From Naegleria gruberi (Eukaryota): a stretch of 64,000 nt of DNA. The notes below the pieces were generated by a model that was not told where the DNA came from, made no database searches, and worked only from the letters and a program-made list of their open reading frames with translations. Position 1 is the stretch's first letter. Every line of letters starts with the position of its first letter. The stretch lies in the NCBI GenBank assembly GCA_000004985.1, contig GG738877.1; one strand, given 5' to 3'. Shown in pieces: positions 53,046-61,135 of the stretch. A program made the position numbers and the translations under genes.

Positions 53046-54245
53046 TTATTTCAATTCTCTTCTTTTAATTTCTGCTTGAATAAGCTTGTTAACATAATAT
53101 TGGTCATCTCTTATGAAATCCAAGGCATAAGCGTTCACTATGAATGAATCCAAGTACACACTTTGATCAAGAGGCTCCATTGTATTTACACTTCTGAGAT
53201 CTACAATGCCTTTGAGTGGAAATTCAGCATAAACTGATACATTGTCATCAAAGAAGATCTGCATTACATCATTATCATTTTCATCAATGAGGAAAATCTT
53301 ACCAGAATGAGTATACATACTATTGGCACACCACCAATAGTAAAAGTCACGAATTAATCTACTCTCACCAGTCTTTGACTTTTCAACGATATTATTGTAA
53401 ATATCTTTGAAACCACTAATTACTTTTCTAGAACCAAGATTCAATTTTTCCACTGGAGTAAATGAAAGCATTCCATCAACAAATTCCAAATGATTTGGAA
53501 TGAAATATGCATTCGTAGGACTATTTCTATACACATGACCAACCATTTCATCCTTGTCAGCAAGGATTTGCTTATTTTGGAAAAATTCTTTTTGCAAATC
53601 TGTAAGAGAAAAATCAGGATGGCTACCAGCACAAAAACTGTTAAATTCCTCAATCACTGAATCGATATCCTCTTTGGAGCCAAAAGTTCTAATAATTAAT
53701 TGAAAATCTCTCCTTGTTTCACATAAATGAAGCATTAATTGGAAGAATGCAGGTATAATATTTACAAAATCCTTTTCAGTTGCATTATCTATTGTTACTC
53801 CTCTATCCATAGAGCTCTTTCTCAAAAGTAATTTCTTCAATTGTTCAAAATCTCTCTTAAATTCACTTCCCAACTTGGAATCCAAAAATGTTTTAATCTT
53901 TTCAGTTCTCATTTGTTTAATTATTGCATTATTCTTTTTACGTTCAATCATTGAAACAGACTCGTCATATTCTGGATACGGATGAACATCATATTCCAAA
54001 TAATCATAATAACTCTTAATATTTTCATCATTTCCATCATTATATTTAGATTTCAACTCTGGATCCAAAAGTTTAAATTGTTTATCTTCGGAAACAACAC
54101 CCCACACAGAGGACATGATAATTTGATTTAAAATATCATCCATAGATTTTCCGGCAGCTGCATCAGCAATGAGCATTGTTTTGTTGACATCAAAATGGAG
54201 AATTAATTGTTTGTGTTGGAGGGAAGAAGGAGCTTGTTGGGACAT
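53046..54245 (-). CDS. Hypothetical protein (399 aa).
   Basis: Single ORF with ATG after a 7-A run. No family recognised. Confidence 0.5.
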   Translation of the reverse strand: MSQQAPSSLQHKQLILHFDVNKTMLIADAAAGKSMDDILNQIIMSSVWGVVSEDKQFKLLDPELKSKYNDGNDENIKSYYDYLEYDVHPYPEYDESVSMIERKKNNAIIKQMRTEKIKTFLDSKLGSEFKRDFEQLKKLLLRKSSMDRGVTIDNATEKDFVNIIPAFFQLMLHLCETRRDFQLIIRTFGSKEDIDSVIEEFNSFCAGSHPDFSLTDLQKEFFQNKQILADKDEMVGHVYRNSPTNAYFIPNHLEFVDGMLSFTPVEKLNLGSRKVISGFKDIYNNIVEKSKTGESRLIRDFYYWWCANSMYTHSGKIFLIDENDNDVMQIFFDDNVSVYAEFPLKGIVDLRSVNTMEPLDQSVYLDSFIVNAYALDFIRDDQYYVNKLIQAEIKRRELK

Positions 54246-54276: not shown

Positions 54277-57200
54277 TTATTCTACATCATCACTATCTTC
54301 ATCATCGCTATCTTCCAAAAGGATTTGCAAGGCCTCTTCTTTGGCTCTATTCTTTCCTGAATTCATAAATCCAAAGAAATCATCATCTTGTTTCACTTTG
54401 GATGAACTTCTCTCAATTTCATAATCTTGGAGAGAGGTTGAATGGACTTTCATGATTTCATCCTTTTCAAAATCTGATAAATAAGTTAGTACAATTACAT
54501 CGCCATCACTGAGATTGATTCTTCTCATTAAGTGAACTGGTTTTTTGATTTCTCCATGTTCTTCGACTTTTTCTATTGGTTTATCCTCTTCTATTCTAAT
54601 GATTCTACTGTCACCAAAGCTGAATTTGGACACTATGAATTCAGATACTGATCCAGAAGTATCAGAAATTGAGAGAATTCCTGCTTTGAAAGTGTCTACA
54701 GTATCCCATGATGAAATTTGAGAAATATTTACAATCAACTCCTTAGCTTCCATATATTCAAAATTACTTTCTGACCCTCTCTCAACGATCTTTCTCAATC
54801 TTACAATGATATGAAGTGGTGGAGGAATAACAAGTTTCTTCTTCTTTGCCTTTGGATCAATAACCTCAGGAGCAGAGGACAGCTTTTCATAAACATCGAC
54901 ATCATTATCCGTTAGTATCTTTACGGCAATTACCTTAGTATCTCTCCATCTTAGCTTTCCAAGAGATTTGTTCAAGTGAATTTTATCAGAGTAAACCTTG
55001 GTCATTCTCTTGAAACCTCCAGTGAAAGTGCAATCTCTTATTTGAAGATATTTGATATTTTCTACACTCTTGAAAGCATCAAGAGTTTTGAGTAAATAAA
55101 TTTTCAAGAACTCCAAAGACCAACTTTCAGAAGCTGTTATATTGGTATGGTGATAAATTTGGTTTTCATTCTCATTCCTAAAATATGAAAAGTGTTAAAA
55201 AAGTTAATAATTGAAACGTACAATATTCTTGAGGAACAAGTTTTTGGTGGGAAGTTGTGAACCAAATTAACTTTGACATGTATTTGGTTATTCAAAGGAG
55301 GCTTTCCAATTTCAATATATATTGTCTTTTCATTTGTTTGTTCGATCAATAAGGTAGAGAGGAGAGTTTCTTCATCCTTTATAATTTCTCGAGGTCTTTG
55401 GTTATGACATCCCCTAAATCTGAAATTATAGACATTGTCATACTGCCAATTTTCCTTTTTGAACTTTTGGGATAGTTTAGATTTGCTACCAATATTAGCA
55501 GATAAATTATTTTGTACACTTACATTATTTTAAGAGATGCCTCTTGGTCAACCTTTAACTCGAACATGTTAAGATAGTTGAATATTGGGCGTTCAGTCGT
55601 TTCATCATAGCCAGTATTCTTGGCTTCAATTTCAATGAACTTGATATCGACCTCCTTTTCTATGGAAAGCTTGATAATAATCTCTATTCTTTCTCCATCA
55701 CCAATATCTAAATCAGAGAGACTCTTTGTAGAATCCTCGTTTTTAAAGAATTGCTTCTTTTGCTTTCTTAACATCACACATTCTTTAATCCAATTTTCAC
55801 CTCCATATTTATGCAATTCTGATACAATACAATGAGAAGAGAACATTTCATCGAGAATTTTCTTCTTGAGTTGTTCCAGAGTGAAATTCAAATCCACTCG
55901 TACAATTTTTTCTCTATCTCCAAACTTTACAATTACAATATCTTCACAATCTTCGTTGGTTAGAGCTGCCTTGACGTTATGCTTTTGTCTTTCCAACTCC
56001 TGATATAATTCCTCTATTATAGAGAATTCATTGAATTCAAATTCTAGCCCTATGGAATCAAAGCCATCCAAAAAGTTTAGCATTTTCTTGTTCATATCTG
56101 TTACAAATATTGGCTTTTTGTTCTTATATCTGAGGTATGCCTTTAAAGGAAGGTCATCAATATAACCCATTCTTATTTTGGCCTGTCTGATAACATCTCC
56201 AATTGACATATCTACTCGGTATTCAATATCGAAAATGTTAGAATCCGTAAGTGTTTCATACATGGCACAAGTGACAGTCAATTTTTCAGGTGTGCTAAGG
56301 TTGAATCTTGGATCTGATACTGAGTGATCTGATTGATCCTCACTAGGCAGAACCAAAAGATACAAATATTTTGACTCCTTATCGCAATATTTTCTGATCA
56401 CTAAATCATCATCGTCAGAGTTTTTAGGAAGCGTTTGGTCTGAAATGGAATAAACTTTTCCTTCCTTGTTGAGCACTCGGAGTGAGAATGTATCGCCAAG
56501 CTTATCACCAAACTTTTCTCTAGTGATTTGATAAAATTCATCTATGTTAGAATCGTAATGAAATTCGAAAGATCTATATAAATTCTTCAAGTCTGATAAG
56601 TTGATTGGTGCTAGATGATTCTTCTCCACGGAGAAAAAGTTTGGAAGATAAACTACAGCTGTTCCAGTATTTTCTCTAAGAGAGTCTGTTTGCCTCTTCA
56701 TGTCAACCTGTTGTTCCTGATATTCTCTCATTACTTTAATTCCTTCATTCTCCCTATCAATATCATCTTTGAAATAAGATGGTATTGGAAAATCAAACTT
56801 GGTATTTTCGAAATCCATTTCCTTTCGTTTGTAGACCAACATGTATGCAGAGGCTCCCTTTCCACCATAATACTTTGGAATTTCCTCCTTTGGATCGATT
56901 TCAAAAACTCTCTCATCATTAAACTCGAACCAATGAGTTTGTCCTTCGAACTCCATTGCAAATTTCTTCTTTTTCTTTTCATTAGAAGTGTCCTCCTCTT
57001 CCAATAATCCAGTTCTTCCCTCCATTAAATGATCATGAATTAAGGAATAGTAGTGTCCACTATATGGACTACCACTGTGTATAATTATACCTATTAATTC
57101 ATACTCCTCTGGTTCACCTGGGTACTCTTTATATGGTGACATGTCTAGTACTGATTCAAATTTGATTTCCTTTTTAATTTTAATTCTGGACTCGGTTTTG

Positions 57201-58349
57201 AAGTCATAATCAAATCTTGTCAAGCTAAAGAATATTATTGGTGGGATAGCTCTCAAAGATGTGTTTCTAAATGCAAGATCCACCTGCTTGTTACATTTAG
57301 AACATGAATATTTGTTGTTTCCTTCGAATCGTTCAACTTCAACAAATTTTTCAAGACTTTCTCTCAAAGTATTTTCTACAGTGATAGTAATATCGTAGAA
57401 ATCCTCTTTTACACAGCTTGTATTTCCACATTCATTGCAGACAATCTTATTTACAGACACTCCTGCAAAGGTGTTCTTAATAAAATTGTCAATTTTCATT
57501 TTGGACAATTTAGTTTCCAAAGCACTGAAAAATACTCTACTCAATTCTTGAATATCATGTTGTACAGAAACTTGCCTAGATCTCCATCCAAATGCATCCG
57601 TTAGCTCTGTAGTTTCAATTGAAGGTTTCTCAATAGCCATCATGTAAGAAAATAATTTTTGCATTACAAAGAGTAAATTAGGTTGTTTTTGAGCTTTCTT
57701 TTTCTTGACAATCCTCTTACTTGAAAGTTTTTCATCATCGACTGAACATGGAATGCACGTATTGTCAAACAATGATCCAATCACACCATCTCGAGGTGGT
57801 ATGAAATCTTGCATTGTTGATTGTCTTTCTTGTTCTTCAAAGAGCCACATGATCATGTTTTCCTGAGTTCTGGTGTTCACATCTGTTGATCCAAAGGTAG
57901 GTTCTACAAATTTATGAAAGCATCTATTAATTAGACTGATTTCAAAACCCATATCAATCAATTGGCCATAATACGGAAAATCAGCAAAATCAATAGTAAC
58001 ATCCTCATATTCAGAATCAGATTGTTTTCCACTAACTTTCTTATATTTTTCCAAATTTAAATTCAAAATATTTGATCTAAAATGTGGGATCATATACAAT
58101 ATCTGGATCAAAGAGTTCAAGTAGCATGTAGCACCTCTTCTCAAAATTAAATATTGATCATGAATGTAATAGTACATACTGATTTCTAAGCCCAACAAAA
58201 TTCGAAGCTTGTCTTTTTAATTGATCCATAGAAGTTGAAACTCTGTAGGACTGATTAACTCCTTCCGATTCACTTGATGATGCAACATGTTGTTCAAACT
58301 CATCCATACCTCCAGCACCTGCAAAAATATCACCAAACAATTCAGACAT
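54277..58349 (-). CDS. USP-family ubiquitin carboxyl-terminal hydrolase with a long C-terminal extension (USP7/USP47-like architecture), about 1294 aa. Four exons (minus strand): 58180..58349, 55524..58136, 55222..55419, 54277..55177.
   Basis: Exon 1 (MSELFGDIFAGAGG...NFVGLRN) plus exon 2 across a 43-nt GTATGT intron yields the USP Cys box GLRNQ|GATCYLNSLIQ. The QDIQELSRVFFSALE box and the His box YELIGIIIHSGSPYSGHYYS are in exon 2. Donors AT|GTAAGT (104-nt intron) and TT|GTACGT (44-nt intron) join the in-frame ORFs 55137..55349 and 54277..55116, ending in an acidic tail DSDDEDSDDVE. Confidence 0.75.
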
Positions 58350-58870
58350 TTTTTCTATTGGTATTTTTAGATGTAATTTGCATGGAAAGTTGAACTTTGA
58401 TTCAATACTGAAATCACAAGTTACAACATTTGTTTGCCATGGGAGATGACTTTTTTTAATTATTCAATTCTTAATCCCAAAGTGACCTTATATGCATGCA
58501 TATGATTCATGCACAATATCGATGTAACATTCAGATTCTTCCTTAAGGACCACCTCACAATTGTAAGCCAATCAACATTGAGTCAAAGTGAATGTAACAT
58601 TGCATTATTTCCTCAACAAAAACCTCAAAAGCTCTTTTCCAAGGTGACTTGTATGACGTTGGCAAAAACATATTTACGGCGTTGAATTTTTATTTTCACA
58701 GGTTGCTTCAGTCCACAACCCTTCACAGCTAAAAGATAAACAAAAAAATTCCACGGGTTGCGTTCCAACAATTTTAATAGAGAGTCACTTCTTCTGATTT
58801 TTGCTTTTTGTTGATAATACCATTTGAACCCGAAGAGATTTTGACGAGTTGATTTTAATATCTGATCAAG

Positions 58871-61135
58871 ATGTTCGATATTGCTATTGCTAGTCATACA
58901 CTCGTAACAACATCTACACCCTATGTACTATATTGTATTGCTATAAAAGTTGATGATATTGCTGAATGGAGTTTGGAACGTCGTTACTCTCAATTGAGAG
59001 ATCTACACACAGAGTTGTCATATTACTATCAAAATTTACCAGATTTTCCACCAAAGGTTTGTTTATTGTTGTTAGATATTTGATGAACTGACATTTTATC
59101 ATCATTATTATGATTATAATAATAATATTATTATTGTTATTATTGATTTTATATACAGTATTGGAAAGGAAACTTTAAAGAACAAAAGATCTCTGAGAGA
59201 CAAACATTACTCAATCAATACTTTAAAACTCTTACAAGAAGAGATGATATTTTCAAACCGGGTATGATTCCTCTCTTTGTTCTTCAATTCTTCTCCTCTC
59301 CAACACCTGTAAAGGAGGCATACCAGAACACATCCATAGTCATTCGTAAAAGTAGTGAAAAGTTAATTCAAAACGTACTTGGAGAATCTGATAAATCAGC
59401 AGCCAGTCCTTCTAGTAGCAACAATAAGAAAGAAGGATCTTCTGGACCTAGAAAATCAGGTGCTTCCGACTTGGAATACGAAAAAGCTATCAATGATTGG
59501 AGTGTTGATGATGTCGCTTCTTGGATCCTTCTTCTCAATCATCAATATAACAGTAATAATTCAATTATTCAATCCAAATTCACAGAAGTTTTAAAAACTG
59601 AGTCAATCGATGGTAGCGTTTTAATTTATTTAACAACAAGAGATTTTGTCAAAATGGGTACTAGAATTAGTGTACAAACAACTCCTCAGGTGAATTCAGC
59701 TGTTTCAGATGCTTTTGCAAGTGTTATTATAGAAAATATTTTGCGAGTGAAAGAACAACAAACAGAATCTGGTCTCTACAGAATTGACAAGAGAGACGAA
59801 ATGAATGATGAAGATGAAGATTATGAAGATGATCGTACACCATCATACATGACAACAACAACAACTACAACAACTGCTCAAGCTAATGATGATTATGACG
59901 ATGACGATGATGATGATTTGAAGCAGGATTTAATTGGAACTGTTGTCACTGGTTCTACAACTTCAAGATCTGATACTACATCAATTAGTACACCTACTGG
60001 TCAAAGTTTTTCTGGTCGTATTTGTCCTGAATTTAACTTGGATAGTGAATTAACAAAGGAGGAACAAGAAAGTTACAGTTATTGTATGAAAAAGATTATG
60101 AATTTGAAAGATCCTGTACCAGAAAGTATTAGAAGAAGATTATGTCAAGATCTTGTTATTCCACAAAGATTCAAATTTAAATATTTGAATCCAAGTTCAA
60201 TTCCTCAAGAAGTTTTAATGATGAATAGTCGTAGAAAAGAAGGTCCATATCTTAAAATCAAGTTAATCATCACAGAATTAGGTGAAGGATTTACTCACCG
60301 TACAATCCGTAGATTGGGTTCTTTAGTTGGTCACAATGAAATCAAGAGTTCAGAGTTCGGTCTTTTCCACAGTTCACTCATTATTGGACCTGTACAATTA
60401 GAATGGACAGATAACTCTATTGTTGTTCCAAGAAAGGAGAAGAGTAGTTCAAAGGCTGTTTTTGCTGTTGATGTTTGTAAAATTAGAGGTCAAGAAAATC
60501 TCAATGATGTTTATGACAAATTAGCTCACTTTTGCACGTTTTGGAATGGCCATCGTCTCTACGTACAAAAAGATACAAATTGTCAACATTTTGTTGTTGA
60601 ACTTCTTAAAGCTATTGGTGTTTACAATCAATTTAAAAAGAATATTGAATCAACAATCTTAGGAAAGTACTTGAACAGACTGAGGGAATATGGTACATGT
60701 GAAATGTCTTATATCATTCCTGAACATTTAGCTCAAAGAATGTTAAAGGAATGTAAGGATGAAATTTCTTCACAGCTCAAACAACTCTTACAAACTTCTC
60801 TCAAAGGAAAGGAAATTATTTTCGATTCTCATTGTGTTCTCGATGAATATTATGAAACTGTTTTGAGGATAGAACCAACTTACTTTGATTTGGGTGATCA
60901 CAAGAAAGAAGAAGAACTTCTTAAGGCATACGATCGTGCTTTCTGGCTTAGACGTCAATCAACCAAAATGGCCAATGATCCAAGAGTTAAACCACTTCAT
61001 GATCCATGTCCATTTGATACAAATGGAGGTGCAAATACTGTTAAGGAAGGTGCTTTTTATCTTGGAGATTACGCACCAGAATATCCAGTACCAACAACTG
61101 TTCTCAATCAACTCAAACAACAACGAAGGAGGTAA
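58871..61135 (+). CDS. PX-domain + SAM-domain protein (about 721 aa). Two exons: 58871..59056, 59159..61135.
   Basis: Exon 1 reads RRYSQLRDLHTELSYYYQNLPDFPPK (PX core) and ends before GTTTGT. A 102-nt AT-rich intron ends atatacag. Exon 2 continues the PX domain (YWKGNFKEQKISERQTLLNQYF), followed by a SAM-like segment (WSVDDVASWILLL...IDGSVLIYLTTRDFVKMG). Confidence 0.7.

What the first reader, a model, noticed from the sequence alone, without database searches (positions are those of the whole stretch)
54277..58349. A roughly 1300-aa USP7/USP47-like deubiquitinase assembled from four ORFs, with the catalytic Cys box created by splicing
The main ORF (55520..58198) lacks a proper N-terminus. 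Joining an upstream 170-nt exon (ATG at 58349) through a 43-nt GTATGT..gaag intron creates GLRNQGATCYLNSLIQ, a textbook USP Cys box, from pieces that are individually out of frame. Two further introns extend the C-terminus by about 370 aa (IFRGCHNQRPREIIKDEETLLSTLLIEQTNEK...DSDDEDSDDVE). A catalytic domain with a large insertion plus a long C-terminal tail is the USP7/USP47 layout. I did not see a MATH domain.
Basis: partly seen in the sequence, partly recalled or inferred. Interest (0 to 1): 0.55.

Follow-up and report, generated by a model that had tools for sequence, protein, structure and literature searches.

The report
Naegleria USP40-like deubiquitinase gene, mis-spliced models

Summary
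The window is Naegleria gruberi reference sequence. The finding is a real minus-strand gene of four exons (58349-58180, 58136-55524, 55485-55222, 55177-54277) encoding a 1315-aa ubiquitin-specific protease. It has a Cys box, His box, an Asn-Asp pair and a four-Cys zinc ribbon (Pfam UCH, E=3.8e-46).

It improves on the public N. gruberi protein, whose 103-nt intron deletes the catalytic Cys box. The real intron is 38 nt, and the longer version removes 22 conserved residues inside a ubiquitin-like domain. Intron 3 is correct. Colinear orthologues in N. lovaniensis and Willaertia magna, with introns at the same positions and phases, support this model.

The closest family is USP40, not USP7 or USP47. 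Catalytic-core HMM scores are 188-207 bits (USP40), 153 (USP47) and 146 (USP7). The C-terminal half aligns with USP40 tails to their ends (hhalign E=1.8e-10). The predicted tail is about six tandem ubiquitin-like domains resembling the USP7 HUBL. There is no MATH domain.

A 118-aa insert after the Cys box contains a possible UBA-like three-helix unit, also present in amoebozoan USP40-like proteins.

Overall this is an ordinary, already annotated gene. Its value is in curation.

The parts
58180..58349 (-). Exon 1 (170 nt). ATG at 58349; encodes MSELFGD...NFVGLRN plus the first two bases of the Gln codon.
   Evidence: The N-terminus MSELFGD is conserved in N. lovaniensis P0002.
58137..58179 (-). 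Intron 1, 43 nt, GTATGT...GAAG, phase 2. It sits directly before the Cys box.
   Evidence: An intron at the same position and phase is present in N. lovaniensis (102 nt) and W. magna (53 nt).
58077..58136 (-). 60 nt encoding GATCYLNSLIQILYMIPHFR (catalytic Cys61 codon at 58126-58124). The public annotation treats this stretch as intron because it uses the alternative in-frame acceptor at 58077.
   Evidence: P0001 equals the translation with the 103-nt intron. Codon comparison with the orthologues gives 7-10 synonymous-only codons against 5 amino-acid-changing codons out of 19, and only one frame is open.
55524..58136 (-). Exon 2 (2613 nt): the catalytic domain with its insert, the connector helix and UBL-like domains 1-3 and the start of domain 4.
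   Evidence: Pfam UCH E=3.8e-46; structure model.
57824..57979 (-). Possible UBA-like three-helix unit (residues 110-161, FPYYGQLIDMGFE...ENMIMWLFEEQER) inside a roughly 118-aa insertion after the Cys-box helix.
   Evidence: Strongly conserved in Heterolobosea. Similar motifs occur at the same site in amoebozoan USP40-like proteins. AF2 model has pLDDT 84.8 and three helices. Only weak or sub-threshold UBA hits.
56906..57103 (-). His box (YELIGIIIHSGSPYSGHYYSLI, His418) and WFEFNDERV with Asn463-Asp464. The zinc-ribbon CxxC pairs lie upstream at 57439-57428 and 57304-57293.
   Evidence: Human USP40 carries the same N-D pair (N452/D453; PMC10867860).
55486..55523 (-). Intron 2, 38 nt, GTAAGT...GGTAG, phase 2. 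This is the correct version.
   Evidence: Same position and phase as N. lovaniensis intron 2. W. magna has no intron here and reads straight through the homologous residues.
55420..55485 (-). 66 nt encoding KSKLSQKFKKENWQYDNVYNFR (residues 929-950).
   Evidence: Conserved in P0002, P0003 and P0124. It lies inside the segment that aligns with the USP40 UBL region.
55222..55485 (-). Exon 3 (264 nt): most of UBL-like domain 4, the region matching Pfam UBL_USP40 in animal USP40.
55178..55221 (-). Intron 3, 44 nt, GTACGT...TTTAG, phase 2.
   Evidence: Same position as N. lovaniensis intron 3. ORF fragment P0124 from another species ends exactly at ...TRIL.
54277..55177 (-). Exon 4 (901 nt including the stop codon): UBL-like domains 5-6, the conserved ...SDGDVIVL... 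motif, a C-terminal helix, the KEEALQILLED motif and an acidic tail.

Best explanation
This is a single, intact, four-exon Naegleria gruberi gene on the minus strand (58349-54277; introns of 43, 38 and 44 nt). It encodes a 1315-aa cysteine deubiquitinase of the USP family, most closely related to USP40.

Shown by sequence: a papain-like USP catalytic domain (residues about 50-495) with Cys61 and His418, the Asn463-Asp464 pair typical of USP40, and a four-cysteine zinc ribbon in the fingers.

Inferred from the family: the enzyme hydrolyses the (iso)peptide bond after ubiquitin Gly76.

Inferred from the structure model and profile homology: after a long connector helix come about six tandem ubiquitin-like (beta-grasp) domains and a conserved C-terminal motif. 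By analogy with the USP7 HUBL, these probably bind substrates or partners and may regulate the catalytic domain. That step is not tested.

A conserved insert after the Cys-box helix may form a UBA-like three-helix unit that could add a ubiquitin-binding site. This is tentative.
For: Gene model. The spliced ORF is open over 3948 nt. It is colinear end to end with N. lovaniensis (1358 aa) and W. magna (1324 aa) orthologues. Intron 1 has the same position and phase in all three species, and introns 2 and 3 are shared with N. lovaniensis. ORF fragments from another species end and start at the same junctions. The disputed 60-nt and 66-nt stretches show excess synonymous change and only one open frame.

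Family. Pfam UCH E=3.8e-46. Among 5.8 billion proteins, the best hits outside Heterolobosea are all USP40 (about 1e-53 to 1e-61). Core-region HMM scores for N. gruberi are 188 bits (animal USP40), 207 (protist USP40-like), 153 (USP47) and 146 (USP7). BLAST gives the same order. In the NJ tree the heteroloboseans sit inside USP40; groupings with USP47 or USP7 appeared in 0 of 100 bootstraps. Full-length hhalign against USP40 gives E=1.8e-84 and is colinear to the last residues. Tails alone give E=1.8e-10, against 0.12 for a reversed control.

Fold. The tail model (pLDDT 72.8) shows repeated beta-grasp units. Its best solved matches are the USP7 HUBL five-UBL structures (E=8e-18 to 2e-16), followed by linear tetra-ubiquitin.
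Against: No transcript data could be consulted, so the splice junctions rest on comparative evidence only. The intron 1 acceptor (GAGAAG) looks weaker than the in-frame TTTTAG 60 nt downstream that the public annotation uses.

Pfam UBL_USP40, USP47_C, USP7_C2 and USP7_ICP0_bdg are all not hit by the single sequence. An exhaustive HMMER search with the tail profile finds only heterolobosean-type proteins, so the tail is very divergent. Bootstrap support for the Heterolobosea+USP40 split is only 49/100. No USP7 or USP47 tails were available as hhalign controls.

Enzyme activity and the roles of the UBL array and the insert are inferred, not tested.
Confidence: 0.85

Rival explanations
1. The public annotation is right. 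Intron 1 is 103 nt (acceptor at 58077) and the product lacks the Cys box, making it a catalytically dead pseudo-deubiquitinase. Alternatively, both acceptors are used and a Cys-less isoform is made by alternative splicing.
For: P0001, the reference protein, is exactly this model. The downstream acceptor CATTTTAG resembles the other acceptors of this gene and its orthologues more than GAGAAG does. Both choices stay in frame.
Against: The 60 nt encode GATCYLNSLIQILYMIPHFR, which is 14-15/20 identical to the orthologues, with 7-10 synonymous-only codon changes and stops in the other two frames. Gene models in N. lovaniensis and W. magna keep the Cys box with the intron at the identical position. 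His418, Asn463-Asp464 and the zinc ribbon are all intact. This argues for an active enzyme under selection.
Confidence: 0.08
2. It is an orthologue of USP47, or of USP7 after loss of the MATH domain, rather than of USP40.
For: Best solved-structure sequence hits are USP47 (7.5e-40) and USP7 (4e-38). The tail model matches the USP7 HUBL best among solved structures. USP47 also has an N-D pair (alignment). Bootstrap support for the USP40 grouping is modest.
Against: The PDB contains no USP40 structure, so those rankings cannot test USP40. USP40 scores are 35-60 bits higher on the same core region. No bootstrap replicate grouped the protein with USP47 or USP7. There is no MATH domain, and no USP7_ICP0_bdg, USP7_C2 or USP47_C hit. 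The roughly 75-aa USP47 insertion before the His box is absent. USP7 has D-D, not N-D. The tail aligns to the very C-terminus of USP40.
Confidence: 0.1
3. One reading: a 104-nt intron 2 and a 1293-aa protein.
For: The GT...AG boundaries are canonical and in frame, and the acceptor TAATTTCAG looks strong.
Against: It deletes 22 residues that are conserved in three or four other species. W. magna has no intron at all here and reads straight through the homologous residues, and N. lovaniensis has its intron at the position of the 38-nt version. The public annotation also uses the 38-nt intron. The deletion would cut into the helix region of a predicted beta-grasp domain.
Confidence: 0.04

Closest known systems
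USP40 (ubiquitin carboxyl-terminal hydrolase 40) of animals, choanoflagellates and amoebozoans
   Same: Similar size (about 1250-1300 aa). The USP domain starts about 40-50 residues from the N-terminus. Highest catalytic-core similarity (36-42% identity). Asn-Asp third and fourth critical residues. Four-Cys zinc ribbon. Long tail of UBL domains that is colinear to the last residues, including the DGD-containing strand and the terminal [KR]xE.L.I..D motif.
   Different: The Pfam UBL_USP40 model is not matched by the single sequence. The roughly 130-aa insert that animal USP40 carries between the His box and the Asp box is reduced to about 35 aa. A roughly 118-aa insert with a possible UBA-like unit follows the Cys box; it is absent from animal and choanoflagellate USP40 but present in amoebozoan relatives.
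USP7/HAUSP
   Same: Catalytic domain followed by a connector helix and a C-terminal array of UBL domains. The predicted tail aligns over about 610 columns with the five-UBL HUBL structures.
   Different: No N-terminal MATH/TRAF domain and no USP7_ICP0_bdg or USP7_C2 match. N-D instead of D-D. A zinc-ribbon cysteine set is present. Core HMM score is about 42-61 bits lower than for USP40.
USP47
   Same: Member of the same USP7/USP40/USP47 group with multiple UBLs (PMC8484750). Best solved-structure sequence hit (8itn, 7.5e-40). N-D pair.
   Different: No USP47_C match. The USP47-specific insertion before the His box is absent. Core HMM score is 35-54 bits lower than for USP40. Never groups with USP47 in bootstraps.
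USP5/USP13 (USPs with UBA domains inserted in the catalytic domain)
   Same: If the insert is a UBA, this would be a second case of a ubiquitin-binding helical domain embedded inside a USP catalytic domain. The comparison draws on my own knowledge of USP5. The USP5 UBA structure 2dak is among the sub-threshold hits.
   Different: Different insertion site (directly after the Cys-box helix), a single unit, a long helix 2-helix 3 loop, and no significant sequence match to UBA models.

Membership tests
USP (peptidase C19) deubiquitinases | USP catalytic domain with Cys box and His box (Pfam UCH/PF00443 above threshold) | tested here: met
   UCH 158.2 bits against a cutoff of 23.9, E=3.8e-46; UCH_1 E=1.1e-16. 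Cys61, His418 and Asn463-Asp464 are present and are invariant in the heterolobosean orthologues that cover those positions.
USP (peptidase C19) deubiquitinases | Ubiquitin-hydrolase activity | not testable with these tools
   Needs a Ub-AMC or Ub-PA assay on recombinant protein.
USP40 | Catalytic domain more similar to USP40 than to any other USP subfamily | tested here: met
   All top non-heterolobosean hits are USP40. Core HMM scores are 188-207 bits (USP40), 153 (USP47) and 146 (USP7). BLAST gives the same order.
USP40 | Phylogenetic placement inside the USP40 clade with good support | tested here: inconclusive
   The NJ tree places Heterolobosea inside USP40. The split (Heterolobosea+USP40 | USP47+USP7) has 49/100 bootstrap support, and the alternatives have 0/100. 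The tree uses a 192-column core and a distance method only.
USP40 | USP40-type ubiquitin-like domain (Pfam UBL_USP40, PF25822) | tested here: inconclusive
   Not hit by hmmscan at E<=1 in any of the three heteroloboseans. However, the tail-only profile-profile alignment (Prob 96.9%, E=1.8e-10; reversed control E=0.12) begins within the region where PF25822 sits in animal USP40 and continues to the C-terminus.
USP40 | Asn-Asp as third and fourth critical catalytic residues | tested here: met
   FNDERV, N463-D464. Human USP40 has N452/D453 and USP7 has D481/D482 (PMC10867860). The pair is also present in USP47, so it discriminates only against USP7.
USP7 | N-terminal MATH/TRAF domain | tested here: not met
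   Only about 50 residues precede the Cys box, and there is no MATH hit in Pfam.
USP7 | HUBL tail recognised by USP7_ICP0_bdg and USP7_C2 | tested here: not met
   No Pfam hit. There is fold-level resemblance only: Foldseek E=8e-18 to USP7 UBL1-5, with low TM-scores because the domain orientations differ.
USP47 | USP47_C domain (PF19718) and the USP47-specific catalytic-domain insertion | tested here: not met
   No USP47_C hit. In the alignment to 8itn the query has 8 residues where USP47 has about 75.
UBA domain (for the insert at residues 110-161) | Significant match to a UBA-clan profile, or clear top structural matches to UBA domains | tested here: inconclusive

The most novel reading that the evidence does not exclude
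USP40-type enzymes of deep-branching protists (Heterolobosea, Amoebozoa and at least one other lineage) may carry a ubiquitin-binding UBA-like module embedded in the catalytic domain directly after the Cys-box helix. This would be an ancestral feature lost in animals and choanoflagellates, giving these enzymes an extra ubiquitin-binding site for chain recognition. In addition, the in-frame alternative acceptor 60 nt into exon 2 might be used to make a Cys-less, ubiquitin-binding but inactive isoform.
Probability: 0.25. Interest if true: 0.4.

Novelty: already known. Interest (0 to 1): 0.2.

Why it matters
The value is mainly in curation. The public N. gruberi protein for this gene ('ubiquitin specific protease', 1295 aa) lacks the catalytic Cys box because of a mis-called acceptor, so a survey of deubiquitinases would score it as a pseudoenzyme. 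The corrected 1315-aa model restores an intact active site.

The result also shows that a USP40-like enzyme with its full multi-UBL tail exists in Discoba. This implies that the USP7/USP40/USP47-type architecture is old among eukaryotes. It also flags a conserved insert, possibly UBA-like, that animal USP40 lacks. None of this changes how USPs are understood.

Tried and rejected
- Pfam scan of the joined protein for USP7_ICP0_bdg, USP7_C2, USP47_C, UBL_USP40, DUSP and MATH: only UCH and UCH_1 hit.
- Exhaustive HMMER search of 1.84 billion representatives with the tail profile: only 8 proteins, all heterolobosean-type or ORF fragments. HMMER alone therefore gives no link to USP40 tails.
- PDB profile searches with the insert: the top 'RecA' hits are artefacts of repeated fusion chains, and the UBA hits are all sub-threshold.
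- Foldseek against afdb50 for the tail: the library was unavailable, so no structural comparison with predicted USP40 or USP47 models was possible.
- Searches with 200-aa USP7 and USP47 fragments, intended to obtain full-length proteins as tail controls, returned only short fragments. These were used for a catalytic-core comparison instead.
- The idea that 54277-55116 is a separate gene was rejected because of the colinear orthologues and the conserved intron 3.
- The 90-aa ORF at 58625-58897 (-) upstream has no Pfam hit and lies partly in the intergenic region, overlapping the start of the divergent PX gene (from 58871). I consider it probably spurious.
Full report
**Origin and observation**

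The window has 34% G+C. The public protein 'ubiquitin specific protease [Naegleria gruberi]' (P0001, 1295 aa) is exactly the translation of minus-strand exons 58349-58180, 58076-55524, 55485-55222 and 55177-54277. The window is therefore N. gruberi reference sequence.

Removing a 43-nt GTATGT...GAAG intron (58179-58137) joins exon 1 (170 nt from the ATG at 58349) to the long ORF and produces GLRNQGATCYLNSLIQ. A 44-nt intron (55221-55178) joins the last two pieces.

**Three competing gene models**

The public annotation has 103, 38 and 44 nt and gives 1295 aa. It uses an in-frame acceptor 60 nt further downstream for intron 1 and so deletes GATCYLNSLIQILYMIPHFR, including the catalytic cysteine. 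A third model, with introns of 43, 38 and 44 nt, gives 1315 aa.

The orthologues decide between them.
They are colinear with the 1315-aa model from Met1 to the acidic C-terminus.
- Their genomic loci (L001, L002) have an intron at exactly the intron 1 position and phase (phase 2, inside the Gln codon of LRNQ|GATCY; 102 and 53 nt).
- N. lovaniensis also has introns at the positions of the 38-nt intron 2 and of intron 3. W. magna has no intron at either site and reads straight through the homologous residues.
- ORF fragments of another Naegleria-like genome end at ...SLKAW (the intron 2 donor), contain ...KKENWEYDNIHNFRFR... contiguously, and end at ...TRIL (the intron 3 donor).
- The disputed 60-nt stretch shows 7-10 synonymous-only codon differences against 5 amino-acid-changing ones when compared with the orthologues, and it has stops in the other two frames. 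It is coding sequence under purifying selection.

No transcript data were available, so this conclusion is comparative. The weak-looking GAGAAG acceptor of intron 1 leaves room for some alternative use of the downstream TTTTAG.

**What the protein is**

Pfam reports only UCH (E=3.8e-46) and UCH_1. Cys61, His418, Asn463-Asp464 and two CxxC pairs (290-293, 335-338) are present and are invariant in the heterolobosean orthologues that cover those positions. I infer an active zinc-ribbon-containing USP.

The PDB has no USP40, however. In the 5.8-billion-protein search, every top hit outside Heterolobosea is USP40 or an unnamed USP40-like protist protein (E about 1e-53 to 1e-61).

I compared a common 191-aa core between the Cys box and the His box.
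- BLAST ranks USP40 (135-154 bits, 36-42% identity) above USP47 (113-129) and USP7 (79-107).
- Family HMMs score the N. gruberi core at 188 bits (animal and choanoflagellate USP40), 207 (protist USP40-like), 153 (USP47) and 146 (USP7).
- An NJ tree places the heteroloboseans inside USP40. The USP40+Heterolobosea split has only 49/100 bootstrap support, but groupings with USP47 or USP7 never occur.
- The Asn-Asp pair is the USP40 (and USP48) type, whereas USP7 has Asp-Asp (PMC10867860).

**The tail**

Single-sequence Pfam finds no UBL_USP40, USP47_C or USP7 tail domains. An exhaustive HMMER search with a three-species tail profile finds only heterolobosean-type proteins. The tail is therefore highly divergent.

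Profile-profile comparison still detects homology.
- Full-length heterolobosean against USP40 alignments give E=1.8e-84, colinear from residue 224 to 1313 against USP40 95-1253 of 1255.
- Tails alone give Prob 96.9% and E=1.8e-10 over 341 columns reaching the last residues of both. A reversed-template control gives E=0.12.
- The aligned segment begins in the region where Pfam UBL_USP40 lies in animal USP40. This is N. gruberi residues from about 915 onward, the region interrupted by intron 2.
- Shared landmarks include the ...L.DGD.I.V... strand and a terminal [KR]xE.L.I..D motif (KEEALQILLED in Naegleria, PERELKIQLDEY in Amoebozoa, RPEVGLTIKVD in animals).

An AlphaFold2 model of the 820-aa tail (17-sequence alignment, mean pLDDT 72.8) shows a 36-residue connector helix, about six beta-grasp units and a C-terminal helix. 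Its best solved matches are the USP7 HUBL five-UBL structures (E=8e-18 to 2e-16, about 610 aligned columns), followed by linear tetra-ubiquitin. This confirms the USP7/USP40/USP47-type layout described in the literature (PMC8484750). There is no MATH domain.

**The insertion**

The catalytic domain has a roughly 118-aa insertion directly after the Cys-box helix: query residues 80-199 correspond to 11 residues in USP47. This is not the USP47 insertion site, which lies before the His box and is short here.

The core of the insertion (residues 110-161, FPYYGQLIDMGFEISLINRCF...ENMIMWLFEEQER) is among the most conserved parts of the heterolobosean proteins. At the same site, amoebozoan USP40-like proteins have ...SVLAFGFDESRVLEGL...ERLINWILS, and another protist protein has ...ALEALGLDAASITRAL...TIVEWIF. 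Animal and choanoflagellate USP40 have nothing there.

- An AF2 model (pLDDT 84.8) gives three helices.
- Sequence evidence for UBA is only suggestive. There is no Pfam hit for Naegleria. The amoebozoan and other inserts give sub-threshold UBA, UBA_3, UBA_7 and RuvA_C hits (E 0.009-0.09). In a PDB profile search, 7 of 17 hits are UBA domains, all at E>0.3.

I treat the UBA-like reading as a tentative hypothesis at roughly even odds.

**Mechanism**

Shown: an intact USP active-site signature and a multi-UBL tail architecture.

Inferred from family knowledge: thiol-protease cleavage of ubiquitin conjugates, and the UBL array acting in partner binding and possibly in self-regulation, as in USP7.

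Speculative: the insert as an additional ubiquitin-binding site, and the C-terminal motif folding back onto the catalytic domain.

**Verdict**

This is a real but ordinary gene that is already annotated as a USP. Interest is low.

Noticed in passing
window 58871-61135 (+): A divergently transcribed neighbour. The exon from ATG 58871 to 59056 encodes the start of a PX domain (Pfam PX E=2.1e-5, above threshold). A GT...AG intron (59057-59158, 102 nt) joins it in frame to 59159 onward and into the 623-aa ORF at 59264-61135, giving a roughly 720-aa PX-domain protein. About 520 nt separate its ATG from the USP ATG.
   Followed up: partly
window 53046-54245 (-): A 399-aa ORF on the same strand starts only 31 nt after the USP stop codon (54277-54279). 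It has no Pfam hit. The spacing implies overlapping or extremely short UTRs.
   Followed up: partly
window 58077-58136 and 55420-55485 (-): Introns 1 and 2 each have a second, in-frame AG acceptor 60 and 66 nt downstream with a more T-rich tract. Alternative splicing to a Cys-less isoform, or to one with a damaged UBL domain, is not excluded.
   Followed up: partly
P0001 (public N. gruberi protein) against window 58077-58136: The reference annotation of this gene lacks the catalytic Cys box, so the deposited protein looks like a pseudoenzyme.
   Followed up: yes
L001 and L002 (N. lovaniensis and W. magna loci): Flanking genes differ between the species. In N. lovaniensis they are actin and alpha-amylase; in W. 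magna they are LUC7, ribosomal L30 and ferritin. Neither set was found next to the gene in N. gruberi, so synteny around this gene is not conserved. W. magna has lost introns 2 and 3 and has a different 49-nt phase-0 intron further 3'.
   Followed up: no
P0010, P0012, P0016 (amoebozoan USP40-like proteins): The insertion after the Cys box is 240-380 aa long in these proteins and is rich in Asn and Thr low-complexity runs around the UBA-like motif. The site appears to tolerate large insertions.
   Followed up: no
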